Below, piece by piece: positions 1 to 39,995 of a DNA stretch of 64,000 bases. The position numbers were made by a program, and so were the translations under genes. The notes under the pieces were generated by a model that saw nothing but the letters and a program-made list of their open reading frames with translations, did not search any database and had not been told where the DNA came from. Within the stretch, counting starts at the first letter, position 1. Every line of letters begins with the position of its first letter. Source of the DNA: a virus (taxonomy: Duplodnaviria; Heunggongvirae; Uroviricota; Caudoviricetes); IMG/VR virus record IMGVR_UViG_2541047913_000007, one strand, 5' to 3'.

Positions 1-1563
1 GAACCGTACGGCAATTTCACCCCCCTTGCTGAGAAGATTTTTTGCCTCCTCCACTGCAACAGTACGGAACATTTTCCAGGACGTCAGTTTACCGGGCTGT
101 TTTTCCAGTCGCAGCGCTTTCCGTCCACCGTCATCAGTCACAGTGCCTTTGCCACCGGCAGCCCCCCACTGCTGCTCTGTCCATACACCATTTCCACTGT
201 TCGCATCATATTCAGCCACCGTCCTGGTACTGCTCACGGCCTCATCATGACCAGTACCAGCAACACCGCCATCCTGCGGTTTCTCAACACCCGGTACCCC
301 CGGACTGACATCATCACCGGGAGTTGTACCACCCGACTGCGGTGCGCTCTGCCCGGTAAGGAACGATAATGTCCGCCCGGCGTACTGCAAAATGGCACCT
401 GCCAGGCGGTCTGAAACAATGCCTCTTCGCGCCCATGAACTGAAGTGCGTTTTACGATCGGCTGCCGTCCAGTTACTGGCAGTGCGTGACGCAGCGCCAT
501 AGTATCCCGCCGGGATAATGTCCGGATCTTCTGACGGCTCGTTTGTCGGCACATTCACACCATGCTCATCCGTCATCAACGGCACAAAGAAGATTTTTTT
601 TGCGGATTTCGTCTTGTATGCACCATACACCGCATCGTATTGCGAAGAATAAGTCTGCTTCCAGTAGTAGGTCGTGTCGCCACAAATCCAGGGAACCGAT
701 GACGGAGAGCCCCCGATACACTGACCTCCGAATTCCGACAGGTCAGAACGATATTTTTCCACCATGGAATCAAACAGCCCCGGCTGAGTGGCGTATGCAC
801 CCTGTTTCAAATCAAACTCGCCCTGCATCCAGACCACTGCAAGCAGAATATTTTTAGGGTTAGCCTTCAGTGCGGCCTGAGTACGGGTAAGCAGGTCCTT
901 GTACAGTGGCTTATCTACACCCCAGCGTGCCGAGGTCTCGCTTGCGCCGGTGGATTCGCTGAAAGTACCTTCATCGCCCTCCAAAAATGCAGAACCACCA
1001 CGGCAGCACGGAACCAGAAGAATACCGGCATTCGCCGGAATAAACGGCAGCAGTTTTTTGGCGATATGCAGCCCCTGCCCCACGGTTCCGTACTGCCCCT
1101 TTGACAAGTCCGCTTTCGGATGGTTAAGACGGCTCATGTCCTGTACATCATGCAGACAATGGTCCGCCGGAATGATGTCGTTATATTTACAGGCGACACC
1201 ACCCGGTGTCACCGTACTGCGACGCGCCAGTTGCTTAATGCGCGGGTCCGGACGGTCATATGTCTCCGGCAGCGGCAACCCTTCACCAAAAGACATTGAG
1301 TTTGACTGCCCCGCCAGAACAACAACAAAGTAATACTCCGGTTCGCTGGTGGTGCTGATAACTGTGCCTTCTCCATCCGACGGCTTCACCACCACAGGTG
1401 TGGTGACATCACCTTCCGCCGCAATGGCCTGCATCAGGGTATAAGGCGTGATGGCGACAGGGCTGCCAAATGGCTGCCACCCCTCCTTCAGTTTTTGTGT
1501 CAGTCGCTCCGCAAGGTCTGACGGCGACGCCGCCCTGACCACATCGTAGTGTTTAAATGTCAT
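1..1563 (-). CDS. NanS-p-like sialate O-acetylesterase (DUF1737 N-terminus + SGNH/SASA domain), N-terminal 521 codons; C-terminus beyond window
   Basis: Minus-strand frame open from ATG at 1561-1563 to position 1; translation begins MTFKHYDVVRAASPSDLAERLTQKLKEGWQPFGSP and contains VLAGQSNSMSFGEG (GQSN esterase motif); absent from ORF track because no stop inside window. Confidence 0.7.
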   Translation of the reverse strand, partial: MTFKHYDVVRAASPSDLAERLTQKLKEGWQPFGSPVAITPYTLMQAIAAEGDVTTPVVVKPSDGEGTVISTTSEPEYYFVVVLAGQSNSMSFGEGLPLPETYDRPDPRIKQLARRSTVTPGGVACKYNDIIPADHCLHDVQDMSRLNHPKADLSKGQYGTVGQGLHIAKKLLPFIPANAGILLVPCCRGGSAFLEGDEGTFSESTGASETSARWGVDKPLYKDLLTRTQAALKANPKNILLAVVWMQGEFDLKQGAYATQPGLFDSMVEKYRSDLSEFGGQCIGGSPSSVPWICGDTTYYWKQTYSSQYDAVYGAYKTKSAKKIFFVPLMTDEHGVNVPTNEPSEDPDIIPAGYYGAASRTASNWTAADRKTHFSSWARRGIVSDRLAGAILQYAGRTLSFLTGQSAPQSGGTTPGDDVSPGVPGVEKPQDGGVAGTGHDEAVSSTRTVAEYDANSGNGVWTEQQWGAAGGKGTVTDDGGRKALRLEKQPGKLTSWKMFRTVAVEEAKNLLSKGGEIAVRF

Positions 1564-1744
1564 GAATCCTCCCTGGCGGGATAATGTTGTGAGTCAGATA
1601 AGGAGCGAGCTGAAGTCCGGAAGTTACAGGACAATGGCAGGAGGAAGACTACAGCCCGCAATACGAAAAAGGCCGCGCAGTTGCGCAGCCTTATGAATTC
1701 TGGTTAAAATCCATTCGATTATAAAAATGTATATCTCATGCTGT

Positions 1745-1776
1745 TGCCCGAACCCACTCGGGCTTTTTTTTGCCCA
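1745..1776 (+). terminator. Hairpin plus T8 tract (gcccgaacccactcgggc tttttttt), intrinsic terminator-like on plus strand
   Basis: Inverted repeat followed by run of T read directly. Confidence 0.4.
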
Positions 1777-1783
1777 CAAGAAA

Positions 1784-2035
1784 GCCCCTCCGGAGAGGGG
1801 CTAAAGCCGCGTATCTGTATCATCATGCACATGGTGCCGGGTGCCTCCCGGTGAGTTCAGCCCGGTGCCACTAAACCCGCGTCATTCTCGTTTTGATAAT
1901 CAGAGATTATACCGTCACCAGTCGCCCCTCCGCTCAGGGGGATTCACCATGCGAAATTTTTTTAACAAATGCCCAGTCTGACAGGCAACTGTCAACTTAC
2001 TGAATTGTGAGCAACATAGCATTTAACGGGGAACC
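1784..2035. repeat. Direct repeat unit A (~250 bp) with internal hairpins gcccctccggagaggggc and cccctccgctcaggggg
   Basis: Long blocks shared with unit B: aaagcccctccggagaggggct, gccgggtgcctcccggtgagttcag, gggggattcaccatgc, ctgaattgtgag. Confidence 0.7.
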
Positions 2036-2049
2036 TGTTTTCTGCAGTA

Positions 2050-2082
2050 AAAAGGCCCACCGGAGCGGATGGGCCTGGAAGG
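2050..2082 (-). terminator. Hairpin ggcccatccgctccggtgggcc followed by T-tract on minus strand
   Basis: Inverted repeat plus tttttact on minus strand, in spacer between repeat units. Confidence 0.4.
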
Positions 2083-2268
2083 ATAGCGGTCATGTGATGC
2101 CGGTTTCCCGGTAACTCAGCACCGGTATCTGAGTCAACGTTTTCTCTACTGGGTCATTTCCGATACGCCCTGCCTGCTGACAGGCTTTCATCACATCTGA
2201 AAATATAGCACCCTGACTGATACTGTAGTACCTAAGGTTCCAGAAACTGTGATGTATCCGGCACAGAA

Positions 2269-2520
2269 AAGCCCCTCCGGAGAGGGGCTGGAGAGTGGCG
2301 CTATGTGCCATTGCATGATGCCGGGTGCCTCCCGGTGAGTTCAGTATCAGCACCTGAACCCGCACAGAAAGGATAAGGGTCGGTGACAAAACACCAGTCG
2401 CTGATTGCCCCTCCGCACAGGGGGATTCACCATGCCAGTTTCTTTTAACAAACTCCCCGCAAACCAGACAACAGTCAACCGCCTGAATTGTGAGGTATTT
2501 AAAAATTTCAACGGGTAACT
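2269..2520. repeat. Direct repeat unit B (~250 bp), diverged copy of unit A
   Basis: Same conserved blocks as unit A in same order. Confidence 0.7.
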
Positions 2521-2618
2521 GATACCCTGCTAATCGCCTGATGCTTTCTTTTTCAGCAACGGGAAAGCAACAACCACCACACCCACCAGCCGCCCATTTA
2601 CCACAAATAAAAAAGCCT

Positions 2619-2939
2619 TCAGGACTGAAGGCGTCTGTAACAACCGAACTGATAGTCTGCCAGCCCCGCCATAACAAGCTGGGTCAGTATTAACTGGCAG
2701 CGTTCACGTGAAAGGTAAGTATTCTGCGCAATCTCCCCGACTGTCGCCGGTTCGGTGGCACTTAATTCATTAAACACCACTCTGGCGGTTTCGGTCATAT
2801 CCTGCTGTTTTAGCATGTCTTTTTCCATTTTCTGGTTAACGTAACATACCAATAACTCTTGTCGGAAAAGCCAGCAAGCTGAAAGACCGGTATTCGCAAC
2901 CACCAGCGCGTTTAATGTTCTGTGCCGTTTTTCAGGCAT
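2619..2939 (-). CDS. Hypothetical small protein, possible winged-helix DNA-binding fold, in the position occupied by stx in Stx phages; start uncertain
   Basis: ORF-track 106 aa; ATG abuts the U-tract of the upstream terminator so the true start may be an internal Met. Confidence 0.4.
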   Translation of the reverse strand: MPEKRHRTLNALVVANTGLSACWLFRQELLVCYVNQKMEKDMLKQQDMTETARVVFNELSATEPATVGEIAQNTYLSRERCQLILTQLVMAGLADYQFGCYRRLQS

Positions 2940-2963
2940 AAAAAAACCCGCAAAAAGCGGGCT
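2940..2963 (-). terminator. tR'-like intrinsic terminator downstream of Q (hairpin cccgctttttgcggg plus U7 on minus strand)
   Basis: Perfect 5-bp GC stem and 7 T on minus strand, ~80 nt after the Q stop. Confidence 0.6.
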
Positions 2964-3040
2964 CTTTCAAATGTCCATGTCTGCTATTCGCCTCGTGGTA
3001 CGGCTTTGCGAAGCGTACCGGAATTGAAGCAGTTTTTACG
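2964..3040 (-). promoter_or_regulatory. Putative late promoter pR'/qut region between Q stop and tR'-like terminator
   Basis: Position only, by analogy with lambda Q-pR'-tR' organisation. Confidence 0.3.
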
Positions 3041-3607
3041 TCAAAAAGCAATAACTTTTTTCTCTATACCAAAAGCCATAACCATTGGTTTGTACAAAAT
3101 AAATTCTGCCACCTTTAGCCAATGCTCAATGCGTCTTTCACAGGTTCTTAAACTCCATTCCGGGTGTGCATCATTCAGCAGTTCAGCCATTTTGCGCTTA
3201 GTCATCCCCCGCCCCACATAACGCTGACTCAGGACATTGAGCAGCCCGGGATAGCCTGCCAGGACTTCGCCAATAACCCTGTCGATTATTAACGCCTCTG
3301 AATCGGTACAATGTGCCAGCCAGCTTTTTTGATTGCCGTTGATCATATCCCGCAAAAAAGCCTCAAGTTCAGGTTTGTCCAGACCAGCTTTTTTCATCCT
3401 CCGGAGCGCCTCGTTAATTGCCGTTTTTGTCAGCTTTTTAGAGGTCAGTAATTGGTTGAACATATTTCCCGTCTTACCGCCGCCAATATACGACCAACGC
3501 CCCCACATCCGTAATCGCCCTTGGATCCAGACTGCTTCCAGCGTTTTTAGGCGTAAATGCTCGCCGCTTTTGCCTGTAATTTCCGGATATATCATATTTA
3601 CGCTCAC
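3041..3607 (-). CDS. Late-gene antiterminator Q (lambdoid Q family)
   Basis: 188 aa, directly downstream of rusA with GTGA stop/start overlap, followed by intrinsic terminator; context and size typical of Q. Confidence 0.7.
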   Translation of the reverse strand: MSVNMIYPEITGKSGEHLRLKTLEAVWIQGRLRMWGRWSYIGGGKTGNMFNQLLTSKKLTKTAINEALRRMKKAGLDKPELEAFLRDMINGNQKSWLAHCTDSEALIIDRVIGEVLAGYPGLLNVLSQRYVGRGMTKRKMAELLNDAHPEWSLRTCERRIEHWLKVAEFILYKPMVMAFGIEKKVIAF

Positions 3608-5384: not shown

Positions 5385-5412
5385 AACAAAACCCGCCGAA
5401 GCGGGTTAAGTG
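5385..5412 (-). terminator. Intrinsic terminator downstream of hok (hairpin cccgcttcggcggg plus U-tract)
   Basis: Inverted repeat followed by ttttgtttttt on minus strand. Confidence 0.5.
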
Positions 5413-5475
5413 CGGGTGCGTTGAGGATGCCTGACTCATCAGAGGTGGCGAGGGATTTCTCCCTCGCCAGGTCTC

Positions 5476-5631
5476 TTACTCCTCAGGTTCGTAAGCTGTG
5501 AAGACAGCGACCTCCGTCTGGCCGGTTCGGATTCGTACCTCGCAGAGGTCTTTCCGCGTTACCAGTGCCGTCACAATGACGGTAATACAGATGACGATCA
5601 GGGCGACTAACATCGCCTTTTGCTGCTTCAT
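5476..5631 (-). CDS. hok: Hok/Gef family type I toxin (HokD/RelF-like, 51 aa)
   Basis: MKQQKAMLVALIVICITVIVTALVTRKDLCEVRIRTGQTEVAVFTAYEPEE is near-identical to E. coli HokD. Confidence 0.9.
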   Translation of the reverse strand: MKQQKAMLVALIVICITVIVTALVTRKDLCEVRIRTGQTEVAVFTAYEPEE

Positions 5632-5639
5632 AGCCTGCT

Positions 5640-5720
5640 TCTCCTTGCCTTTCGGCGTGTAAGAGGCTAACCTACATGTGACTAGCATGAAATTGGCCTC
5701 AGATTAATGTTAAGCGTCCT
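5640..5720 (+). ncRNA. Putative Sok-like antisense RNA region opposite the hok/mok leader (position inferred, not delimited)
   Basis: Established hok/sok architecture; no boundaries verified in sequence. Confidence 0.25.
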
Positions 5721-5867
5721 GCAAGACGCATAATGTTAACTGGGGCTTTTCTCTATCTGCCGTTGGTGTTCATGCCCGAGGCAGATAGCCTCAAGCACCC
5801 GCAGCAATTCTACTTAACTCACGTCACCTCGCCAATATGAAATCAATCAGAAAGGTGATCCATAAAA

Positions 5868-11725: not shown

Positions 11726-12281
11726 CCTCCTGAGGGTTGGTAATTAAGGAGTTCTCCACGGGTCAGGTGGAGTGCGTGCGCCGGACACGGGTGAGCATCC
11801 GGCACTGACAGTTTACTGAAAGGATATGTCCCTGAAAAGTCAGGGCATAACGCGAAAGCGCACGGCGAAATTGGTCTCTCTGTACGGTGTCGTTAAATTT
11901 AGTTCGACCGTGCACTTCCGGTTGTGGCACTCCGCGAAATGGCGCGGCGGTAAGTATGGCTGGGGTTTCCTCCATTGCTCCAGAAAATGCACCGGGTTGT
12001 CAGGTTGACCATACGCTTAAGTGACAGCCCCGCCACAATACCCATGCGTAGTCTTTGGTGGCATCAGTTCTACTCCGTGACTGCTCTGCCACCCTTTTTA
12101 AAGTGAATTTTGTGATGCGGTGAATGCGGCTATGCGCACGCGGAACAGTTAAAACCGTAAAGTGGTCTTTTACGGGGCGTAACGGGCATCCTTCTGTATT
12201 CCGGCGTTAATTGTTAACTGGTTAACGTCACCTGGAGGCACCAGGCACTGCATCACAAAATTCATTGTTGAGGACGCGATA

Positions 12282-27312: not shown

Positions 27313-27634
27313 CCCAATACCAATCCGAATCCACCCTTTGTCATCATTGAGAAATGGCAAGGAAGAAAAGGATGTTACTGCACGATTTGACAAATCCGCC
27401 AGAGCTATCGCATACTGATCGCACTGAACAAATAAGCGGTCTCCGCACCCGATAGCTTTGCGGCTTTTTTATGCCTGCAATTTGGCATAGTTACATCCGT
27501 ACAAAGGTCGGGTGGAGAGGCGTAATACAACACCCGCAAGGGGAATATGCCCAGAGCTTCTTATTTGGCTCAGTTGACACCCGACCGCCAGCTACTAACT
27601 GGCGGTTATAAACTAAACAAATAAGGAGGTCATC

Positions 27635-27919: not shown

Positions 27920-28168
27920 CTATACTCCGCGCCGAGGCCTCGAAAACCTCCCAAAAGCGGATTAAACCAACCCCGTCAGTGTTGGATTTTTTATGCCTGT
28001 TATTCAGTGATAGCACAGTGTGCGGTCACATCCCCGATCAATGTCGGGAGGGCGACGAATACAACACCCGCAAGGGGAATAAGTCCGCGGTATCTTTTGG
28101 GCCGTTTCGAGCCTCCCGGCACCACATCTTGTGGTGGCATTTCTCGAAAAAAGCCAAAGGAGGTCATC

Positions 28169-31613: not shown

Positions 31614-34600
31614 TTAATCCACTCCCACTTTTTTGTTGTACTCGCGGTTAAAGCGATCCACGGCAACCTTCATATCCCGCTCTACCGATTTCACCATCGC
31701 CGCCTGCTGCGCCAGACTGAGAGAACTGTCGGCATAAATGGCATCGCGCTGTTTGCGCAAATCCTTCAGTCTCTTCCGGGTATCCTGCATAAGCCCGTTC
31801 ATCAACAATTTTCCGTTGTTCTCGTCAATGAACGCCGTTCTTTCTGCACCGGTCAGACTCTTCAGCTCTGCGTGATACTGCGCAACCTCTGTCATCCGGT
31901 CGTACATCTTCTGCTGGTCTGCATACGGCATCACCTCACCCGAAATTTTCCCCAGGAAGGGCACCTGCTGCTCCGGTATATCAATACCGTTCAGCGATTT
32001 CACCGCCGCATCTGTGGTTTTGGAAATGAAGCGCCCTGTCCCTCCGGAGATATAGTCAATCCAGAATTTCAGCGATTCCGGTGTGATATCCACCGCGCCG
32101 GGACGATACTGGCTGCCACCTGAGAACGCATTCAGCCAGGATGCAAACGCCTTGTACGCCTCAGGCGTTGAACGTCTGCCCAGTTGGCTGTCCGGTTTCG
32201 GTGTGCCAAATGGCATGTTCTCCTGGTAAATCTGCGCCCCCATGAAGTTTTCATTCATGGCAAGGTTCGCAAACGGACGCAGAATGGTCGGCGCTGCATT
32301 TTTCAGCAATGCCCCGGACAGTGTTTCCGACGTTTCACTGCCCACAGGACTGAATGCCCCCAGGATACCACCGACAACATTACCGGCAGCACGTGAAGCA
32401 GTCAGGTCGCCCGCTGCCACACCTTCAGCAGTATGCCCGAGCAGGAAGAAAACGTTGTACCCGTAAGGCAGAGGAATACTCCAGTACTCTCCGGCCTTGC
32501 CCCCGAACACCGATTTCATAATGACGAGGTTACGCTCTTTCACATGAGACGGCACCTTGTCATACCAGTTAACCCCGTCATCATCCTCCCCCGCAACACT
32601 GCGGTTAAGCGAGCCAAGCAGATAACCCGCTCCCACAGCTGCAAGCGCGATTTTCTGCGGTACATTGAGATTCTTCCAGCGAAGGCGCTCCGGTAACGGC
32701 CCGTCGCCATTAAGATGTCCGAGCGTTCTCACCAGGTTTGCGGTCCCCTGAATGCTGGCGTTGGCAAACATATACAGCGAGTTCATCAGCGCTCCCTGCT
32801 CACCACGACGGTTAAAGTTCACCGTCATGTTTTTGGCAAGAGATGCCGCCTGCTGGCGTGACAAACCGGCATCACGGGCGTGTTTATAGGCAGAAAGACG
32901 CAGAGCGTTTTCAACCGCGCCGTTGGCATCCTCGACCAGGTTCAGGAACGAATGCCATGCACCGATACTCTGGCCTTTCCATCCTCCCTTCGCCAGCGAT
33001 ACAAGGCGATCCATTTCCTTCTGCTGGCCTTCAAGGTCACCCATGTTAAACCAGCCGGTTTTACCTCCATCCTCAACAAACTCTTTCCACACCTTCTGCC
33101 ACTGCGCACCGTTGCCCGTGAGGGTTTTACCACGCAGACTGGCGTATACGGCAGACATGGCAGACCGGCTGTCTTTCACCACAGCCAGGGCGGATAAGTT
33201 ATCCAGCCCTTTCAGTTTACCGTCGCTCCTTCCCTGCTCAGCCTTCAGGTTCATCACCGCCGTCTGCACGTCACGGATGAAGTTACTGACCAGAAATTCC
33301 GGGTTATACGACGTGTTCACCGTTGCCAGGAAACGGTTAACTTTCCCCAGCGTACGGATTACGGCGTTACTGGTTTCCGGCCCCATGTTCTTCATCGCAC
33401 GCATCAGGCGCGGGTCATGGAGTTTGATGTAGTAAGTTTTGCCGTCCTTTTTGGTGGTGAAGTAGCGATCCGCCATCATTGCCATAGGCACCGGACGTTC
33501 AACAACTTCGCGACGGGTTTCGCCGGTTTCCGGATCAACACGCTCTGCAATCGCCCGCATGGTGTCCGGTTTGTCATCAGTGAATACCTGCCAGTAATCC
33601 TTATCGGGATTATCCTGCACCAGTTTCAGGAAGGCGTTACCCACTTCGTTTTTGCGATTGCGGATCAGCGATTCGCTCAAATCCTGTATCGCCTGAGTGG
33701 AAGGAGACTGTGCGCGGGATGCACGCCCCATGGCCTGCCTGCTTTCACGTCCGCCGATGGTGAAGCCCTTACCTGTACGGGGCAGTGACACCACACCGTC
33801 AACATCCTGACCTTTCAGGGGAACGTAGTAACGGTAGGCGTTCTGCCAGGCATCCACCACACCGCTCTCTTCCAGTCCGGCCTCACGGATAAGCTCACGG
33901 CGACGGGCCAGCATATCGTCAACAATCCCTGCCAGACGGTCATACTGTGCCTGTTTGCCACTGTTACGCACACGCTGCATGATTTCCGCCGCTTCCGCGT
34001 TGGTCATCCCCGAACCGCCGTCCGGCATTTTCGGGTTGATTTTCGCGATATGCGCGTTACGTTCCGGCGCGTGACGGGCGTAGAGGTACTCATCCAGATC
34101 GGCCTGCGCAATTTTGTAGTCCGCCAGTAATTTAGCCAGTGGCTGAACGTAGCGCTCCTTCATCACGTTCAGGTCGTTTTCCGCCTTCCCGTGGAAGAGT
34201 TCTTCCGCCATATAAGCGTTGTTACTGTCGTCTATTTTTCCGCCAGTTTTACGGATATTCTCCTGAACAGCTTTCAGCACCTGGAATTTATCCTGCATCT
34301 GGCGCACAAAACGCGATGCAATTGTCTCTTCCGGTGTCAGACTGCTGGTACGGGAGTAATACGGCCCCTTGCGAATATCTTCAGGATAGAGTATTTTATC
34401 TACAGAGCCGCGATAAGAACGCTCCTCTTTGGGCAATTGGAGCCCACTGTACTGAGGGTTATCGCGGCTTAATTTCTCCTTCCGGTAAAGCGTTAATCCA
34501 GCCATTTCCATACTTTTCAGCTTTTTCCCGTTTTCCGTACCGTAAACAGATGCCACCTTGTTAATTTCCAGACGTTTATCTGTCGCCTTCATATGCACTG

Positions 34601-37600
34601 CCGAGACGACCGGATCACCATTTTTATCCACAGCATCAAGCAGCATCACAACCGCATTTCTTTCTGTCGCGGAACGGTAAATTGCATCCGGATTGTGCAT
34701 CAGTTCCGGAAGTCTCTCGATAACATCCATTGGCACCACATGTTTCACGCCATTGGTAGCCTTCCGCACAGTGTCGCGGGAGATAACCAGCGGCAAATCT
34801 GGTGCGCCAAGGTGGCGCAATACCGGCGGCGTACGCCCGATGTTTGCAGTCATTGCACCAGAACGTAACGACTTCATCATTCTGGCAAGGTCATCACGAT
34901 AACGCTCGCCCTCACCTTCCGGCACTTTGAACGGATCAGGCTTACCGCTACGGGAGTACTGAGACGATGCGCCAGCGCCATCCTCACGCGGCGTGTAACC
35001 TTCCCGCACACGCTGGCCTAACGTGCGAATAGTTTCGCGAACAAGTCTGATATCGTTCAGCTCTGTCGGCTTCAGTAACCCCGTGCGACGCAGTACCCCT
35101 TTGACCAGGGCAACAACACGCTCCCACGCCGCCACAAATTTATTCGGCTGTTTCTCCGCCATATGTGCCAGAAATTCACCTGCCTGCACTTCCGGTGATT
35201 CCTTACCATAAGACGCATCAACCTTACGCCAGGCGTCACGGATGGTGGCGTTATCACTGTCACGGGTTTTCAGTACGGTCTTAATAATCGTCTGATATTC
35301 CGCTGGCGTGACTACATGCTCCATTGCATGGTGAATAATCTCGTGACGTAACTTCTCGCGAACGGTCCGCCCGTCAGGGATGTTATCCGCCACCAGGACA
35401 ATTTCACGTTTATCCGGACGATAGAACGCATGCACCCTGCCGTAACCGTCGAACGATTCACCCGCCAGCGCTTCAGCCTCTTTCTGTGACTTCACCACGC
35501 GGACCTTCAGGTCACTGTCCTTAATGCCACTCATCACGCCACGGGCAACCGCTTCAACCTGCGGGACCGGGCTGCCTTTGGCTTCCGCACTGCGGTTAAC
35601 ATCCGAAATGAGATTGCCTTCAGGTGTGCGGGTCACGCCCTTACGGGAATAAAACGCAACGCCCTTGTCCGTCTCACGGGTTTTCAGCGTACTGAACAGG
35701 TGATCGAATGCATCACGAATACCGCCATCCAGTTCCGCATTCGTCGGATAAGCCCAGGTGTTATCTGTGTTGTGCTCAGGTGCCTTACGGATATTGACCA
35801 GATAATCATTCTCCACGCCAGCCGTACGCGCTTTATCCTGAACATAACGCTCAAAGGCACGCGCCGCCATTTCAACATCCGTTGACCAGTACGGTTTTGA
35901 GCGCACCTCATCGAGAAGCGCTGAACGACGCGGCATGTCACTGCTGTTGATCGCTTTCATCACGCCTTTAAACGCGTCGTAAACCTCCTGACGTACCGGA
36001 TATTCCGCATCAACATATCTGCCGTCTTTAAATACGCGCCCGGCACGCTGTGCTTCCGTCATATAGTCGCCACCTGACGTGATCTTCCCGTCAGTGGAAA
36101 CATCATAACGACCAAAATAATTATCCAGTGAATGGAACCATTCGTGGGCCAGCGCCCCCGGTCCGTTACCTTTTGTCAGGTTGATTGCCACCTCACCCGG
36201 CTCATAGTGTGCCGCCGCCTTACCCTTACCACGGGCACCAAAAGCAAGCCCAAGACGACCGTTCAGAGAAAGCGCTTTTGTCGGCACGTTCAGCACATCA
36301 GCCAGGTCATGCAGCGAGTCATAAGCCCGGTTCAAATCAGCCTGACGACGCGGACCTTCCACATAATTACCAAACTGCACACCACGAAAACCAAACGCAT
36401 CACTGAACTGCTCCGGCGAAACATCCCCCTTGCGGCGTTCTGGTCCGGTACGATCGCGGTTGGTGGCGTTACGCTGCTCCTCACGCGAAATCTCCCGCAT
36501 CTCCTTCACATGACGAACAAGCTCATCACGATGTGAATCAATGTACTTACGCGCATCACTGGCTGACTTAAAGCCACCTCTCACCCGCATTTTGTTTTTG
36601 CCGTAAGCGATAAAAATATCGCCACTACGGGTATTCCGGTAAACGTCAAAGCTGATTTTGTCATCTGGTGACGGTGCTGTTTTTTCATCACCTTTCGCCC
36701 GTGACTTTTCCTCCTGCTCTGCAAACCAGGCTTTCGCCTTTGTCAGTAATTCATCCCTGCTTTCCGAGAAAAAGAGGTTACTCCCCTTATTGTCCTTATT
36801 GCGCAGTGAATAAAGTTTCTGTGGCGGATCGTAACGCTTCCCTCCGGCCGCCTGATACACACCGGATACCACCCGATAAGCAGAAGCCTTGTCCATCTGT
36901 GAAGGTGGCAGCGTGCGTAACAGTTGCCAGGTATCCGCATAACGGGAAGGCATTCTTCCCTCCATCCACTCAGCAAGCCGTCCGGCAGTCACTTTTCCTT
37001 CCAGCATTCCCGCCACGCTTGTGCGGATGCTCTTTACACTCTCCACCCACTTCACCGCATTGAGTTTCGTTTTCGCGGGAATATCACTGCGGTACAGCGC
37101 AATCATTGCCAGTGTGTCAGCGTCGGCCCCTTCGTTCGCCAGTTTTGCATAGTCCGGTTTCGGGAACACTTTGCTCAGCGGCTGCGTGAAATAATCCCTG
37201 TCTTCCAGCGTTTTACCCAGTGTTTCGGCAAGCTGTGCATAACGGTGTTTTGCCGCGCCCTTAATCTCCTCACCAAAGTCTTCAATTTTTGCACCACGCG
37301 CCTGCTGGTGAGTGCTCGGTTTATCTACCGGCACCGGCACCGGCACCGGCACCGGCACCTCAGTATCCGGAACATCGGTTATGGTCTGGCGATTATCCCC
37401 GGTCTGTCTGCGCGCTTCTGCCTGCTGTGCCAGTTCCGGAAGGGAGTCACGAACCATACGAGGGAGTGATTCAGGATGTGGCATATCAACCCCACGCTGT
37501 TCAGGTGCAGGAAGTCCTTCACGCACTGGTGCTGTGGCGTTCTGCTCATCCGGTGATGGCAGACCACGACGAACCGGTTCGCCCTCCAGTATTTCCCCCT

Positions 37601-39995
37601 GGCGACCAGCGGCATTTTCCGGTGCCTGCGCACGTCCTTTCTGGAAACTCTGGCCCTTCACCTCACCGGTTGTGGTAAAACGACCACCACGTCCGGCCTG
37701 ATTTTCATCCGGCGTACGCGCCACTTCTCCTGGTAACGGATATCCCTGTCCGGGATGAATATCGCCGGGAGCGGGAAGGCGTGGACGCTCAGTTAACTCC
37801 TGTGCTGTCGGACCGGCATCACCTTCAGCCATCTGTGAACGTACAAGCTCCTCTGCCGTCGGCGCGTTGCCACGGGCAAGGCGGGCCTGCACTTCTGTAT
37901 CATCCCCCGTGAAACCACGGAATCGCGGGTCACGCATGAACGCGGGCTGCTCCATCGGTTCAGCATCAGCAATACGCTCTCCGTCAGCCAGGGTGTTAAT
38001 GGTCTCCGTTGCCACATCTTCAGAGAACGCAGGATTATCCATTTCAACGGCATACTGATTCTCGCCTTTCTTCACTACGGACGGTTTCAGGCCGGTGGCG
38101 CTGGCATTGCGGAAAACGTCGCTCCCCAGAGCACTTTTTTCATCCGTGAAATAACGGTTGTCCGGACGCACCTTTTCAATGCGTTCTGCTGGTCTGGACG
38201 CACCACTCCCGTTAATTTCAATACGAACTTCATCCGGATCGCGGAACCGCACCGTCGGGTAAATACTCCCGTCGCCATCATCCGCATTTTCCGGCTGTGG
38301 CTGTGCCTCCGGTCTGGCCTCCTGCTGAGGGCGAAGCACATCACGGATAGCCTGTAACTGCTGCTCTTCAGTATCAGTACGCCCTTCCTTCAGGCTGAGT
38401 TTTCGGTATTCCTCAAGCAGTTCAGGGCGCGGCTTCGCCTTCAGCTCATCCATCACCGCCTGTCGCTTCGCCTGTTCATCCAGTTCATTTAACAGCTGGC
38501 TGGCGGCTTCCCGGCGATGAACGGCAGACGTGTCTCCCTCAGGTGCCATATCCGCATCAGCATACTGTTCCAGAAGTTGCTCGCGATTCATGCCCTGCAT
38601 GGATTCGCGATGCTGTGCCACCGGATCAGCCGGTTCGGGTTGCGGGGCTGCTTCACCCTGCTGTACGACTTCAGCCTCACGCATGGCGGTTTCTTCTGCG
38701 GCCTGACGTTTTCCACGATATCCGGCAACCGCACCGAACGGTGCGCCCATCGCTGCACCAAGAGCGGCTCCTTCGATCGTTGCGTCAGCTACCCCCTCCC
38801 ATGGTGATATATCCATTCCGGCAGTCTCACGCAACGTCATATTTTCCTGGTAACGCGAATAGCCGCCCTGCGCCGCATTAATCGTCCCCTGTTCCGTGGC
38901 ATTTCTGACAATGCCGCTTTTAACGGTCTTCGCCGTGCCCCGCATCGCCAGATTAAACAACTGAGCATCGCCCAGTTTTGCCGCCATGGCATTCACAGCC
39001 AGCAATTCAGGATCGGTTGCCAGCTGCGCGCGCACCTCATCGGCAACACGCTCTTTTGCCAGATCCATTTTCTGGCGATCAGTAAGCTGTGCGTGCTGCG
39101 GATCTGCATCAATTGACAAAAACGTCTGCTGAAATTTCGGGGACTTCGCCAGCTCAGAGTAATCCGCGTTAAGAACAGAGTCTGCTGCTGCCATTGCACT
39201 CTGCCCCTGTGCGCTGGCTGAGGAATGGGTGATCAGGCCTGCCTGGAATAAATCCGGCATTTTTTTATCGACAGCTTCTGCTGCCAGTGCGGTAGCTCTT
39301 TCCGGCTGCATCCCTGCCGCAATGTATTTTTTCTCCAGCCCGGCGGTCAGCACTTTTCGCAGAGTGACTTCACCCAGCTTTTTAGTCACACCGCCTGCAA
39401 CCATATCAGGTACAAGGGCACCAATCAGGTTTACGCCCTTCGCCACCCAGACCGCAGAATCATCATATCCTTCAGTCATCGGTGTATTCAGCGCCCGCTG
39501 CGCCCCCGGCGACATCTTGCCAGTCAGCCATTCATCCGAGGCTTTAGCGCCGCCACTGACTGCCTTGCCTGTGACCTTCAGACCTTTACCGACAGTATCA
39601 GTAACCGCATTTTTTCCATCAGGCAGAGTGTCGATGACCTCATCCGCCCCCTTGCTGCCACCGACAAAAATATCCTGAACAGTTGCGACTCCCGGCAGCC
39701 CCATACGGCTGAACTCATTTAAAATACGCGCCCCTGTTTTTACCGGGTTCTGAATCATCGCATCACCGAGTCCACGGGCCATTTCCCCTGCCCCCCGGAC
39801 GGACTGGGCGACACCTTTCCCCATAGTTGGCAATACATCGCCCAGGCTGAACGACGTGCTGTTGTCCTTCCAGCGATTGGGATCGGAGAAAAACGCATCA
39901 TAGCTGTCAGTCTCGCCCGGCTGCTGAATGTTCAGGCTGTTGCGGTTCTGGTTGCCAAATTGCGCTTCAGGGCGCTGTTCATCGGAATAAGCCAT
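31614..39995 (-). CDS. Giant 2793-aa virion-associated/polyvalent-type protein with two HExxH zincin-like motifs and acidic Pro-rich linkers
   Basis: Single uninterrupted ORF; ALAHEWFHSLDNYFG and LRHEIIHHAMEHV; PVPVPVPVPV tract. Confidence 0.75.
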   Translation of the reverse strand: MAYSDEQRPEAQFGNQNRNSLNIQQPGETDSYDAFFSDPNRWKDNSTSFSLGDVLPTMGKGVAQSVRGAGEMARGLGDAMIQNPVKTGARILNEFSRMGLPGVATVQDIFVGGSKGADEVIDTLPDGKNAVTDTVGKGLKVTGKAVSGGAKASDEWLTGKMSPGAQRALNTPMTEGYDDSAVWVAKGVNLIGALVPDMVAGGVTKKLGEVTLRKVLTAGLEKKYIAAGMQPERATALAAEAVDKKMPDLFQAGLITHSSASAQGQSAMAAADSVLNADYSELAKSPKFQQTFLSIDADPQHAQLTDRQKMDLAKERVADEVRAQLATDPELLAVNAMAAKLGDAQLFNLAMRGTAKTVKSGIVRNATEQGTINAAQGGYSRYQENMTLRETAGMDISPWEGVADATIEGAALGAAMGAPFGAVAGYRGKRQAAEETAMREAEVVQQGEAAPQPEPADPVAQHRESMQGMNREQLLEQYADADMAPEGDTSAVHRREAASQLLNELDEQAKRQAVMDELKAKPRPELLEEYRKLSLKEGRTDTEEQQLQAIRDVLRPQQEARPEAQPQPENADDGDGSIYPTVRFRDPDEVRIEINGSGASRPAERIEKVRPDNRYFTDEKSALGSDVFRNASATGLKPSVVKKGENQYAVEMDNPAFSEDVATETINTLADGERIADAEPMEQPAFMRDPRFRGFTGDDTEVQARLARGNAPTAEELVRSQMAEGDAGPTAQELTERPRLPAPGDIHPGQGYPLPGEVARTPDENQAGRGGRFTTTGEVKGQSFQKGRAQAPENAAGRQGEILEGEPVRRGLPSPDEQNATAPVREGLPAPEQRGVDMPHPESLPRMVRDSLPELAQQAEARRQTGDNRQTITDVPDTEVPVPVPVPVPVDKPSTHQQARGAKIEDFGEEIKGAAKHRYAQLAETLGKTLEDRDYFTQPLSKVFPKPDYAKLANEGADADTLAMIALYRSDIPAKTKLNAVKWVESVKSIRTSVAGMLEGKVTAGRLAEWMEGRMPSRYADTWQLLRTLPPSQMDKASAYRVVSGVYQAAGGKRYDPPQKLYSLRNKDNKGSNLFFSESRDELLTKAKAWFAEQEEKSRAKGDEKTAPSPDDKISFDVYRNTRSGDIFIAYGKNKMRVRGGFKSASDARKYIDSHRDELVRHVKEMREISREEQRNATNRDRTGPERRKGDVSPEQFSDAFGFRGVQFGNYVEGPRRQADLNRAYDSLHDLADVLNVPTKALSLNGRLGLAFGARGKGKAAAHYEPGEVAINLTKGNGPGALAHEWFHSLDNYFGRYDVSTDGKITSGGDYMTEAQRAGRVFKDGRYVDAEYPVRQEVYDAFKGVMKAINSSDMPRRSALLDEVRSKPYWSTDVEMAARAFERYVQDKARTAGVENDYLVNIRKAPEHNTDNTWAYPTNAELDGGIRDAFDHLFSTLKTRETDKGVAFYSRKGVTRTPEGNLISDVNRSAEAKGSPVPQVEAVARGVMSGIKDSDLKVRVVKSQKEAEALAGESFDGYGRVHAFYRPDKREIVLVADNIPDGRTVREKLRHEIIHHAMEHVVTPAEYQTIIKTVLKTRDSDNATIRDAWRKVDASYGKESPEVQAGEFLAHMAEKQPNKFVAAWERVVALVKGVLRRTGLLKPTELNDIRLVRETIRTLGQRVREGYTPREDGAGASSQYSRSGKPDPFKVPEGEGERYRDDLARMMKSLRSGAMTANIGRTPPVLRHLGAPDLPLVISRDTVRKATNGVKHVVPMDVIERLPELMHNPDAIYRSATERNAVVMLLDAVDKNGDPVVSAVHMKATDKRLEINKVASVYGTENGKKLKSMEMAGLTLYRKEKLSRDNPQYSGLQLPKEERSYRGSVDKILYPEDIRKGPYYSRTSSLTPEETIASRFVRQMQDKFQVLKAVQENIRKTGGKIDDSNNAYMAEELFHGKAENDLNVMKERYVQPLAKLLADYKIAQADLDEYLYARHAPERNAHIAKINPKMPDGGSGMTNAEAAEIMQRVRNSGKQAQYDRLAGIVDDMLARRRELIREAGLEESGVVDAWQNAYRYYVPLKGQDVDGVVSLPRTGKGFTIGGRESRQAMGRASRAQSPSTQAIQDLSESLIRNRKNEVGNAFLKLVQDNPDKDYWQVFTDDKPDTMRAIAERVDPETGETRREVVERPVPMAMMADRYFTTKKDGKTYYIKLHDPRLMRAMKNMGPETSNAVIRTLGKVNRFLATVNTSYNPEFLVSNFIRDVQTAVMNLKAEQGRSDGKLKGLDNLSALAVVKDSRSAMSAVYASLRGKTLTGNGAQWQKVWKEFVEDGGKTGWFNMGDLEGQQKEMDRLVSLAKGGWKGQSIGAWHSFLNLVEDANGAVENALRLSAYKHARDAGLSRQQAASLAKNMTVNFNRRGEQGALMNSLYMFANASIQGTANLVRTLGHLNGDGPLPERLRWKNLNVPQKIALAAVGAGYLLGSLNRSVAGEDDDGVNWYDKVPSHVKERNLVIMKSVFGGKAGEYWSIPLPYGYNVFFLLGHTAEGVAAGDLTASRAAGNVVGGILGAFSPVGSETSETLSGALLKNAAPTILRPFANLAMNENFMGAQIYQENMPFGTPKPDSQLGRRSTPEAYKAFASWLNAFSGGSQYRPGAVDITPESLKFWIDYISGGTGRFISKTTDAAVKSLNGIDIPEQQVPFLGKISGEVMPYADQQKMYDRMTEVAQYHAELKSLTGAERTAFIDENNGKLLMNGLMQDTRKRLKDLRKQRDAIYADSSLSLAQQAAMVKSVERDMKVAVDRFNREYNKKVGVD
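37327..37356. repeat. Hexanucleotide tandem repeat (ACCGGC)x5 inside giant gene, encodes (PV)5
   Basis: accggcaccggcaccggcaccggcaccggc. Confidence 0.8.

What the first reader, a model, noticed from the sequence alone, without database searches (positions are those of the whole stretch)
1745..2560. Two ~250-bp direct repeat units bounded by strong hairpins in the Q-to-late junction (the stx position)
Units at about 1784-2035 and 2269-2520 share long identical blocks. On the minus strand each ends in a GC hairpin (gcccctctccggaggggc) followed by a U-tract and contains a TTGACT-like hexamer upstream. That resembles small promoter-to-terminator transcription units (candidate duplicated sRNA genes or Q-dependent leader elements) rather than coding sequence. 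Additional terminator-like hairpins of both orientations flank them. No stx or tRNA genes are present where Stx phages carry them.
Basis: seen in the sequence. Interest (0 to 1): 0.6.

Follow-up and report, generated by a model that had tools for sequence, protein, structure and literature searches.

The report
Tandem STnc100 prophage small-RNA genes
The two repeats are copies of a known prophage small-RNA gene family (STnc100, the family of the Hfq-bound RNA next to the Shiga-toxin genes); a third diverged copy lies between them and a known type of anti-sRNA gene faces them, so the locus is real but largely already described.

Summary
The units at about 1772-2035 and 2259-2520 (minus strand) are 74% identical, and each ends in the hairpin GCCCCTCTCCGGAGGGGC.

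Both units are members of Rfam RF02076 (STnc100), scoring 165.5 and 138.1 bits against a gathering score of 47. In Sakai phage Sp5 this family lies 75 nt after stx2B and corresponds to the Hfq-bound sRNA EcOnc27/sRNA103. PasD of EPEC is a distant relative.

- The spacer between the units (2047-2220) is a third, diverged paralogue that keeps every helix.
- The plus-strand hairpin at 1746-1763 is the terminator of an AsxR/AgvB-class anti-sRNA (1716-1768). With copy 1 it forms the "convergent sRNA dyad" that Tree et al. (2014) described for the moron slot downstream of Q.

There is no stx gene, no tRNA gene and no conserved reading frame.

The triple array is found in about 12% of complete E. coli genomes, in two sequence lineages with compensatory changes, so it is not a recent duplication.

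At family level I found strong covariation for a pseudoknot that is not in the Rfam structure, and a corrected register for helix P2. The 3' linker, the probable seed, differs between copies and recombines between family members.

The most likely mechanism is separately transcribed, Hfq-binding, base-pairing sRNAs whose terminators are read through by Q-modified polymerase. This is inferred from homologues, not shown for this locus. Verdict: a known kind, of modest interest.

The parts
1772..1981 (-). STnc100 copy 1, the promoter-distal copy and the one that faces the anti-sRNA. The predicted RNA runs from about 1952 to 1775 (about 178 nt).
   Evidence: RF02076 at 165.5 bits, gathering score 47. 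The minimum-free-energy fold gives P1, P2, P4, P5, a single-stranded linker and a terminator, z = -2.24.
1783..1802 (-). Intrinsic terminator of copy 1 (AGCCCCTCTCCGGAGGGGCT followed by TTCTTGTG), and the probable 3' Hfq-binding site.
   Evidence: In the Sp5 homologue the Hfq-CRAC peak covers the last ~80 nt (PMC4104026 supplement; coordinates converted).
1803..1830 (-). Variable linker V2 of copy 1 (GUGCAUGAUGAUACAGAUACGCGGCUUU), the probable seed.
   Evidence: Only 10 of 27 positions are identical to copy 2. Mean probability of being unpaired is 0.79 for the central 24 nt (CAUGAUGAUACAGAUACGCGGCUU), against 0.42 for the whole RNA.
1959..1988 (-). Inferred proximal promoter of copy 1: -35 TTGCCT (1983-1988), an 18-nt spacer, and TGT-TAAAAA (-10 at 1959-1964).
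   Evidence: Read from the sequence. Divergent family members have TTGnnn, 17-18 nt, then TAnnnT at the same distance from P1. HK639 has TTGACT-18-TAATTT at this position. The PasD 5' end maps here. This is an inference, not a mapped start site.
2047..2220 (-). Third, diverged paralogue ('mid'). The predicted RNA runs from about 2197 to 2047 (about 150 nt). Extended -10 TGCTATATT at 2202-2210; terminator at 2053-2076.
   Evidence: RF02076 at 30.1 bits, below the gathering score. The fold keeps P1 through compensatory changes (GAUGUGAUG/CAUCACAUG), and also P2, P4, P5 and the terminator, z = -2.77. It is about 59% identical to both STnc100 and PasD. It occurs in 673 of 5426 E. coli genomes.
2259..2464 (-). 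STnc100 copy 2, the promoter-proximal copy. The predicted RNA runs from about 2435 to 2262 (about 175 nt). Terminator at 2270-2289; -35 TTGTCT at 2466-2471; -10 TAAAAG at 2442-2447.
   Evidence: RF02076 at 138.1 bits. Fold z = -2.32. Its 3' tail is shared with 28 family instances, 19 of which carry the EcOnc06 probe target.
1716..1768 (+). Convergent anti-sRNA gene of the AsxR/AgvB class. Terminator at 1746-1763; -10 TAAAAT at 1705-1710.
   Evidence: RF02703 AsxR at 63.0 bits, equal to its gathering score; AgvB at 43.4 bits. The 3' 36 nt are identical to EcOnc03 (AsxR differs at 2 of them), and the 5' ~17 nt are a distinct variant.
1669..1692 (-). A further minus-strand terminator, lying between the sRNA dyad and the esterase gene.
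2530..2643 (-). Remnant of a DUF3927 small-protein gene just upstream of copy 2, as is found upstream of PasD in EPEC.
   Evidence: Pfam DUF3927, E = 6e-4, profile positions 31-50 of 53, below the curated cut-off. Compare the intact genes.
2619..2939 (-). Small ORF with weak similarity to winged-helix proteins, occupying the slot that stx2AB fills in Sp5 (RefSeq calls 2619-2816). A minus-strand terminator lies at 2615-2632.
   Evidence: A homologue lies upstream of STnc100 in 30 of 101 viral loci.
3041..3607 (-). Q-like antiterminator gene (context).
   Evidence: Pfam DUF1133, E = 2e-105; Phage_antitermQ at 32.6 bits, cut-off 26.
1..1563 (-). nanS-p-type sialate O-acetylesterase gene, cut by the window edge (context).
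   Evidence: Pfam DUF1737 plus SASA. 59% identical to Sp5 ECs1207.

Best explanation
The locus is an array of three same-strand genes for STnc100-superfamily small RNAs: copy 2, a diverged middle paralogue, and copy 1. A convergent AsxR/AgvB-class anti-sRNA gene faces copy 1. The array sits in the cargo ('moron') slot of a Qin-type lambdoid prophage, between the Q antiterminator gene and the esterase and lysis genes. This is the slot where Stx phages carry stx, followed by one such dyad.

Each RNA has three parts:
- a conserved, pseudoknotted 5' domain of about 125 nt (closing helix P1, hairpin P2, a pseudoknot between the strand after P2 and the loop of hairpin P4, and hairpin P5);
- a short single-stranded linker that differs between copies and is the probable seed;
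- a G+C-rich intrinsic terminator that also serves as the Hfq 3' binding site.

In the lysogen each gene would be transcribed from its own sigma-70 promoter and stop at its own terminator. This would give RNAs of about 150-180 nt (possibly also about 235 nt from an upstream start). These would bind Hfq and base-pair with host or prophage mRNAs through the linker, so the three copies would have different targets. After induction, Q-modified RNA polymerase would read through all the terminators to reach the late genes.

Shown here: family membership, the anatomy, the structure with covariation, the non-coding nature, and the conserved position and conserved array.

Inferred from homologues: expression, Hfq binding and trans-acting base-pairing.

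Inferred from sequence only: the promoters, the start sites and the identity of the seed.
For: Membership: RF02076 at 165.5 and 138.1 bits against a gathering score of 47. The 5' domain alone scores 110 bits and resembles no other Rfam family.

Same architecture as Sakai Sp5: stx2B, then STnc100 (207.7 bits), then convergent AsxR, then nanS-p.

Published evidence on homologues:
- EcOnc27 is Hfq-crosslinked and seen on Northern blots, and the convergent dyads occur in at least 8 Sakai prophages (PMC4104026).
- The Northern probes for EcOnc04, 05, 06 and 27 all target family members.
- EDL933 STnc100 copies are transcribed and one was confirmed by Northern blot (PMC5331693).
- The distant relatives PasD1 and PasD2 are Hfq-dependent, 172-173 nt long, and have RIL-seq targets (PMC8550237).

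Structure: P1, P2, P4 and the pseudoknot all show compensatory changes. In the swap test the duplex energy of cognate partners averaged -10.8 kcal/mol against -6.5 for permuted partners, and 0 of 5000 permutations reached the observed value. 45 of 46 sequences can form a duplex of at least 5 bp, using many different sequences.

Non-coding: no frame is open in more than 23 of 46 members, and core lengths are not multiples of three.

Position: a Q gene lies upstream in 76 of 101 viral loci, and an esterase or holin lies downstream in 39 and 37 of 81.

The array is conserved. The middle element occurs in 673 of 5426 genomes, in two lineages about 91% identical, in the same order and with compensatory changes.

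Modularity: V1 and V2 diverge (11 of 40 and 10 of 27 positions identical) while the core and terminator are conserved. Natural recombinants carry swapped 3' modules.
Against: There are no expression, Hfq-binding or target data for this locus or for these exact sequences.

The inferred -10 elements are weak (TAAAAA and TAAAAG lack the final T), and the consensus promoter scan found none on the minus strand.

The published size of EcOnc27 (about 235/247 nt) does not fit the proximal start site (about 180 nt) and remains unexplained.

No direct target of any STnc100 member has been validated. The effects of sRNA103 on espA appear to be indirect (PMC5030294).

A conserved pseudoknotted domain of about 125 nt is unusual for a plain seed-pairing sRNA and hints at an additional or different function.

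The fold z-scores are modest (-2.2 to -2.8).
Confidence: 0.72

Rival explanations
1. The conserved pseudoknotted 5' domain is the functional part. It would be a protein- or ligand-binding RNA, or a nuclease-resistant RNA module (for example a decoy or a scaffold). Hfq/seed pairing through the linker would be secondary or absent.
For: The 5' domain is far more conserved than the linker. It contributes 110 of the 165 bits. It has a four-way, cloverleaf-like topology with a covariation-supported pseudoknot. The pseudoknot persists even in PasD (AAUGAUC/GAUCAUU) and in the middle paralogue. No direct mRNA target of any STnc100 member is established.
Against: In EcOnc27, Hfq crosslinks to the 3' 80 nt. 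PasD has a target motif complementary to its linker, and many RIL-seq partners. The linkers are predicted to be unpaired. No known protein or ligand partner exists, and the domain resembles no riboswitch, tRNA or ribozyme family.
Confidence: 0.18
2. The units act mainly in cis on the late operon. They would form a stack of terminators that keeps the esterase and lysis genes silent in the lysogen, or Q-dependent leader/qut-type elements. The short RNAs would be by-products.
For: At least six minus-strand terminators lie between Q and the esterase gene, against 2.7 terminator-like sites (both strands) in shuffles. The elements always lie on the late-transcript strand between Q and the lysis genes. 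In a few loci the element starts only about 180-210 nt after Q.
Against: The family occurs behind at least four different Q types at very variable distances, and after stx2AB in Sp5, whereas qut sites are specific to one Q and sit at the promoter. Selection clearly acts on about 125 nt of structure upstream of each terminator, which a plain terminator does not need. Each unit carries its own promoter-like element at a conserved position.
Confidence: 0.08
3. The units are remnants of a recent tandem duplication or of a decayed protein-coding gene, and have no function.
For: RefSeq annotates 'hypothetical protein' ORFs over parts of the region in some genomes. A DUF3927 remnant lies next to copy 2.
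Against: There is no conserved frame and no Pfam hit for the overlapping ORFs. Base-pairing is kept by compensatory changes. The three-unit order is kept in two lineages in about 12% of E. coli genomes, and the middle unit shows compensatory substitutions. The copies differ precisely in the loop and linker modules, not at random.
Confidence: 0.02

Closest known systems
EcOnc27 / sRNA103 (STnc100 copy 3' of stx2B in Sakai Sp5 / EDL933 933W), paired with AsxR
   Same: Same Rfam family. Copy 1 is 77% identical to it. The order is the same: cargo gene, then STnc100, then a convergent anti-sRNA, then nanS-p. The 5' domain and the upstream block TCACAATTCAG..GTTGAC are shared.
   Different: Here the cargo is a small winged-helix-like ORF rather than stx2AB, and there are no tRNA genes. 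There are three sRNA genes in tandem instead of one. The linker (the probable seed) is entirely different. The anti-sRNA has a different 5' region.
EcOnc05 / EcOnc06 (Sakai Sp4 / Sp17; EcOnc06 is the convergent partner of AgvB2; about 222 and 177 nt)
   Same: Both are STnc100 family members. The 3' tail of copy 2 (linker plus terminator) is the one carried by most instances that match the EcOnc06 probe. The 177-nt size fits the proximal start site inferred here.
   Different: The internal hairpin V1 of copy 2 differs, so it does not carry the probe target. Their identity to the Sakai loci themselves was not checked directly.
PasD1 / PasD2 of EPEC E2348/69
   Same: Distant relatives with the same slot (DUF3927 gene, then the sRNA, then esterase or holin), the same P1 and P2, and the same pseudoknot logic. 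They are Hfq-dependent, and their seed lies next to the terminator.
   Different: They are only 58-65% identical to the window's three units and fall below the STnc100 gathering score (41 and 38 bits). They lack the P5 hairpin. Their UGUGAG seed context is absent from the window's copies, which have unrelated linkers. The Pas copies (PasA, PasD) are reported to be dispersed rather than tandem (bioRxiv 10.64898/2026.05.13.724894).
AsxR / AgvB / EcOnc03 anti-sRNAs
   Same: The element at 1716-1768 (+ strand) reaches the AsxR gathering score. It shares the conserved 3' region and the position convergent to an STnc100-type gene.
   Different: Its 5' variable region, which determines which sRNA it sponges, matches none of the three. 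Its target is unknown.
Tandem sRNA paralogues such as OmrA/OmrB and PrrF1/PrrF2 (from my own knowledge; cited)
   Same: These are adjacent, separately transcribed paralogous sRNA genes in which conserved parts sit next to parts that differ between the copies.
   Different: They are core-genome genes with no sequence relationship to this family. Here there are three paralogues with a large structured domain, carried on a prophage.

Membership tests
Rfam RF02076 STnc100 | Covariance-model score at or above the curated gathering score (47 bits) | tested here: met
   Copy 1 scores 165.5 bits and copy 2 scores 138.1 bits, both over the full model length. The middle unit scores 30.1 bits and so does NOT meet it; it is a relative outside the curated family boundary, like PasD.
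Rfam RF02076 STnc100 | Conserved secondary structure (closing helix, internal hairpins, 3' terminator) | tested here: met
   The minimum-free-energy folds of all three units reproduce P1, P4, P5 and the terminator; P2 appears in copy 1 and the middle unit, while copy 2's minimum-free-energy fold uses an alternative pairing there. Family covariation supports P1, P2 and P4. The Rfam register of P2 fits less well (91.3% of cells paired, 0 covarying pairs) than a register shifted by one (99.6%, 3 covarying pairs).
Rfam RF02076 STnc100 | Discrete small transcript; Hfq association | not testable with these tools
   Known only for homologues (PMC4104026, PMC5331693, PMC8550237).
Convergent sRNA dyad of the lambdoid moron site (Tree et al. 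2014) | An anti-sRNA of the AsxR/AgvB class transcribed towards an sRNA on the late-operon strand, 3' of Q/PR' and the cargo gene and 5' of the conserved esterase ORF | tested here: met
   AsxR model at 63 bits at 1716-1768 (+ strand), facing copy 1, which ends at 1772 (- strand). Q-like gene at 3041-3607 and esterase gene at 1-1563. The layout is the same in Sp5.
PasD (EPEC) | Close sequence similarity to PasD1/PasD2, including the UGUGAG seed next to the terminator | tested here: not met
   58-65% identity, and the linkers are unrelated to that of PasD. These are relatives, not members.
PR'-qut-tR' late leader (lambda 6S RNA / StxS type) | Starts at the Q-dependent late promoter directly after Q and is specific to one Q type | tested here: not met
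   Here the units begin about 570 nt or more after Q, behind another terminator and an ORF. The family follows at least four Q types at distances of 184-3600 nt.
tRNA / tmRNA | Recognised by ARAGORN or by the Rfam tRNA models | tested here: not met
   ARAGORN finds none in the window. No tRNA or tmRNA hit on the 5' domain at E <= 10.
Protein-coding gene or pseudogene | A reading frame conserved among relatives, or similarity to a protein family | tested here: not met
   The best frame is open in 23 of 46 members, and core lengths fall in all three classes modulo 3. The ORFs that overlap the units have no significant Pfam hit.

The most novel reading that the evidence does not exclude
STnc100-superfamily RNAs may be two-part molecules. 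A conserved, pseudoknotted, cloverleaf-like 5' domain of about 125 nt, whose fold is not annotated in Rfam and matches no other family, would have its own function (a protein or ligand partner, or nuclease resistance). It would be joined to freely exchangeable seed-plus-terminator modules. Lambdoid prophages would maintain a fixed array of three non-redundant paralogues, present in about 12% of E. coli genomes, as an 'sRNA cassette' in the slot that Stx phages use for the toxin.
Probability: 0.3. Interest if true: 0.55.

Novelty: already known. Interest (0 to 1): 0.3.

Why it matters
The slot after Q in lambdoid prophages carries Shiga toxin and other virulence cargo. The sRNAs next to it are thought to connect prophages to host regulation: AsxR and AgvB are proven sRNA sponges, and variants in the STnc100 region after stx2 were recently linked to clinical outcome (PMC12711010).

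This locus shows that a non-Stx prophage can fill the slot almost entirely with regulatory RNA genes. There are three STnc100-type paralogues with different probable seeds, plus an anti-sRNA. The arrangement is conserved and common in E. coli, yet it is unannotated in RefSeq.

The pseudoknot and the corrected P2 register would improve the family model. They would also guide mutational tests on a family whose function is still unknown.

Tried and rejected
1. The genome-contig scan with the 16-mer CATGGTGAATCCYCCT returned only chance hits in unrelated phyla, because the pattern was too short for 596 Gb. The two-block pattern against viral contigs worked.

2. Idea: the convergent anti-sRNA sponges its STnc100 neighbours. 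The duplex energy of its 5' region with each of the three RNAs is no better than that of dinucleotide shuffles (195-260 of 300 shuffles are as good). Rejected.

3. Idea: the TTGACA/TTGACT hexamer is the -35 element. It lies 25 nt (a 25-nt spacer) upstream of the only A/T-rich -10-like element. Divergent members align a TTGnnn element 8 nt further downstream. Judged unlikely, though an upstream start near CTCACAATTCAG, which would explain the 235/247-nt EcOnc27 species, cannot be excluded.

4. Idea: the middle unit is a PasD variant. It is equally distant (about 59%) from PasD and from STnc100. Rejected.

5. Idea: the 5' domain belongs to a known riboswitch, tRNA or ribozyme class. No Rfam hit at E <= 10 apart from STnc100.

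6. HK639 caught my attention because I recall it as a phage with put-type antiterminator RNAs. The STnc100 copy there lies in the gap between Q and the holin gene and has its own consensus promoter. Nothing links it to put-type antitermination.

7. Counting the pseudoknot on the MAFFT alignment is blurred by register drift (62.9% of cells paired). I therefore relied on the alignment-independent swap test and did not build a covariance model.
Full report
OBSERVATION.
- The repeat finder gives three collinear blocks at a spacing of 483-487 bp: 88 nt at 80%, 31 nt at 97% and 28 nt at 93% identity.
- Globally the units are 74% identical, and the alignment score is 20 sd above shuffles.
- Each unit ends, on the minus strand, in GCCCCTCTCCGGAGGGGC followed by an interrupted T-tract. 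TTGACA and TTGACT lie upstream.
- Terminator-like hairpins are enriched: 10 against 2.7 +/- 1.7.
- The window has no tRNA gene and no stx similarity.
- The neighbours are a Q-like gene (3041-3607, minus strand), RusA, DUF968 and hok/sok upstream, and a nanS-p-type esterase gene (1-1563, minus strand) downstream. DicF at 12043 marks a Qin-type prophage.

WHAT IT IS.
- Both units are full-length matches to Rfam RF02076 (STnc100): 1981..1772 at 165.5 bits and 2464..2259 at 138.1 bits, against a gathering score of 47.
- The 'spacer' between them (2220..2047) is a third, weak match at 30.1 bits.
- The plus-strand hairpin at 1746-1763 is the terminator of an AsxR/AgvB-class anti-sRNA at 1716-1768 (63.0 bits, equal to the AsxR gathering score).
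- In Sakai phage Sp5 the same order is found: stx2B, then 75 nt, then STnc100 (207.7 bits), then convergent AsxR, then nanS-p.
- Tree et al. (PMC4104026) described this as 'convergent sRNA' dyads in the moron site 3' of PR' in at least eight Sakai prophages. The Sp5 STnc100 copy is their Hfq-crosslinked EcOnc27, also known as sRNA103 in EDL933.
- Their Northern probes for EcOnc04, 05, 06 and 27 all target members of this family.
- EDL933 has 11 transcribed copies, one confirmed by Northern blot (PMC5331693).
- A 2026 preprint (10.64898/2026.05.13.724894) shows that the EPEC sRNAs PasD1 and PasD2 are distant STnc100 relatives. These are 172-173 nt long, Hfq-dependent and have RIL-seq targets (PMC8550237).
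- The finding is therefore a correct recognition of a known sRNA family.

NOT CODING AND NOT A Q LEADER.
- Across 46 diverse family cores, no frame is open in more than 23, and core lengths fall in all three classes modulo 3.
- The ORFs that overlap the units have no Pfam hit. Only a DUF3927 remnant lies beside copy 2.
- In 120 viral contigs the element lies downstream of a Q gene in 76 of 101 loci, and upstream of an esterase or holin gene in 39 and 37 of 81 loci. It is never found in the reverse arrangement.
- The upstream Q genes are of at least four different types and lie at 184-3600 nt. This argues against a Q-specific qut leader.

ANATOMY AND STRUCTURE.
- Minimum-free-energy folds of the three predicted RNAs give the same plan: closing helix P1, hairpin P2 (replaced by an alternative pairing in copy 2's minimum-free-energy fold), hairpin P4, hairpin P5, an unpaired linker and a terminator. 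The z-scores are -2.2 to -2.8.
- I built a structure-blind MAFFT alignment of 46 cores. The cores were selected by two exact anchor sequences, so P5 and part of P1 and P2 are invariant by construction.
- On that alignment, P1 has three covarying pairs (A-U to G-C in 18 sequences).
- P4 has seven covarying pairs out of eight.
- P2 fits a register shifted by one from Rfam's: 99.6% of cells paired with three covarying pairs, against 91.3% with none.
- The strand after P2 pairs with the loop of P4, forming an H-type pseudoknot. Examples are CUGGUG/CACCGG in copy 1, AUCAGC/GCUGAU in copy 2, and elsewhere CCAGUC/GACUGG, GCCAGGUC/GACCUGGC and ACUGGAUA/UAUCCAGU.
- Five of the six pseudoknot pairs covary even on the structure-blind alignment.
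- 45 of 46 sequences can form a duplex of at least 5 bp.
- Cognate partners pair at -10.8 kcal/mol on average, against -6.5 +/- 0.4 for permuted partners, and 0 of 5000 permutations reach the observed value.
- The pseudoknot is also visible in PasD and in the middle unit.
- It is absent from the Rfam consensus structure line and is not mentioned in the preprint.
- The 5' domain matches no other Rfam family.

THE COPIES DIFFER IN MODULES.
- Between copy 1 and copy 2 the terminator (21 of 23), P1-P2 (30 of 36) and P4-P5 (39 of 50) are conserved.
- The internal hairpin V1 (11 of 40) and the linker V2 (10 of 27) are not.
- The linkers are predicted to be unpaired. They correspond to the Hfq-crosslinked part of EcOnc27 and to the position of the PasD seed.
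- Natural recombinants exist with the 5' domain of copy 2 joined to the tail of copy 1, and the reverse. Others join an STnc100 5' domain to a PasD-type tail.
- The tail of copy 2 is the one carried by most EcOnc06-type instances.

THE ARRAY IS CONSERVED.
- 13 of 120 viral loci have at least two same-strand copies, often 468-490 bp apart.
- The middle unit occurs in 673 of 5426 complete E. coli genomes. 345 have it at 99% identity or more, which matches the 344 genomes that carry at least 80% of the 921-bp region. A further 327 have it at about 91% identity.
- The second lineage has the same order: Q, tRNA-Ile, DUF3927 gene, STnc100 (138 bits), a middle-like unit (30 bits), STnc100 (134 bits). 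Its middle unit shows compensatory changes in P2 and a U.G to U-A change in the pseudoknot.
- The middle unit is about 59% identical to both STnc100 and PasD, so it forms a third branch.
- The viable phage HK639 also carries an STnc100 gene and other terminated units in its gap between Q and the holin gene.

PROMOTERS (inferred).
- When divergent members are right-aligned on P1, they show TTGnnn, then 17-18 nt, then TAnnnT, often preceded by TGn, ending about 7-12 nt before TGGTGAATCC. HK639 has TTGACT-18-TAATTT at this position.
- In the window this corresponds to TTGCCT-18-TAAAAA for copy 1, TTGTCT-18-TAAAAG for copy 2 and TGCTATATT for the middle unit.
- The predicted RNAs are then about 178, 175 and 150 nt. 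This fits the mapped 5' end of PasD and the ~177-nt size of EcOnc06.
- It does not fit the 235/247-nt size of EcOnc27. An extra start near the conserved CTCACAATTCAG block would give about 235 nt. This point remains open.
- The -10 elements are weak, and the consensus scan found no minus-strand promoter.

MECHANISM AND VERDICT.
- Most likely these are separately transcribed, Hfq-binding sRNAs that base-pair through copy-specific linkers. Their terminators would also block late transcription until Q acts.
- Membership, structure, position and the non-coding nature are shown here. Expression, Hfq binding and targets are inferred from homologues.
- The main rival is that the conserved pseudoknotted domain has a function of its own.
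- The family, its slot and the dyad are already described.
- What this work adds is the tandem three-paralogue array and how common it is, the pseudoknot and the P2 register, and the modular exchange of 3' tails.
- Interest is modest.

Noticed in passing
window 1716-1768 (+): An AsxR/AgvB-class anti-sRNA gene with a TAAAAT -10 element at 1705-1710. Its 3' 36 nt are identical to EcOnc03 (AsxR differs at 2 of them). Its 5' ~17 nt (CGAUUAUAAAAAUGUAU) match none of the three characterised anti-sRNAs, so the sRNA it would sponge is unknown.
   Followed up: partly
window 2943-2966 (-), with 2967-3050: A strong intrinsic terminator (GCCCGCTTTTTGCGGG followed by T7) lies about 75 nt after the Q-like stop codon. 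The fold z-score is -3.84. A possible promoter TTGCTT-17-TTCAAT overlaps the end of the Q gene. It looks like a PR'-tR' short leader, analogous to StxS or lambda 6S RNA.
   Followed up: partly
window 2619-2939 (-): A small ORF (65 aa as called in RefSeq, 106 aa at its longest) with weak winged-helix hits (TrmB, MarR; below the cut-offs) occupies the place of stx2AB. Homologues lie upstream of STnc100 in 30 of 101 viral loci.
   Followed up: partly
window 5476-5800 (-): A hok/sok type I toxin-antitoxin module: sok at 113 bits, plus a HokD-like ORF at 5476-5688. A sub-threshold isrK-like match lies next to it at 5386-5467 (27.8 bits, gathering score 50).
   Followed up: no
window 12043-12094 (+): A DicF sRNA gene (58.9 bits). 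It marks the immunity and division-inhibition region of a Qin-type prophage.
   Followed up: no
window 27506-27594 and 28043-28128 (+): Two matches to the sRNA-Xcc1 family (69 and 73 bits), about 540 bp apart and outside the prophage late region.
   Followed up: no
window 31614-39995 (-): A very long ORF of 2793 aa. It was not examined.
   Followed up: no
L246 (phage HK639, NC_016158) 1966-2920: The 950-bp gap between Q and the holin gene holds no CDS. It contains four annotated terminators, a tRNA, an STnc100 gene with a consensus promoter, and two further terminated units of unknown identity. One of these gives a sub-threshold isrJ-like hit directly after Q.
   Followed up: partly
L127, L172, L224 and other viral loci: Tandem pairs of diverged STnc100 genes also occur in other lineages, including Klebsiella-phage-like contigs, at spacings of 233-958 bp. 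Family members are mosaics of exchangeable 5' domains and 3' tails, including tails of the PasD type.
   Followed up: partly
window 2000-2011 and 2483-2494 (minus strand CTCACAATTCAG): A block conserved upstream of the E. coli STnc100 copies contains CUCACA, which is the RIL-seq target motif reported for PasD. This may be a coincidence for a 6-mer, or it may matter if a longer (~235-nt) transcript includes the block.
   Followed up: no
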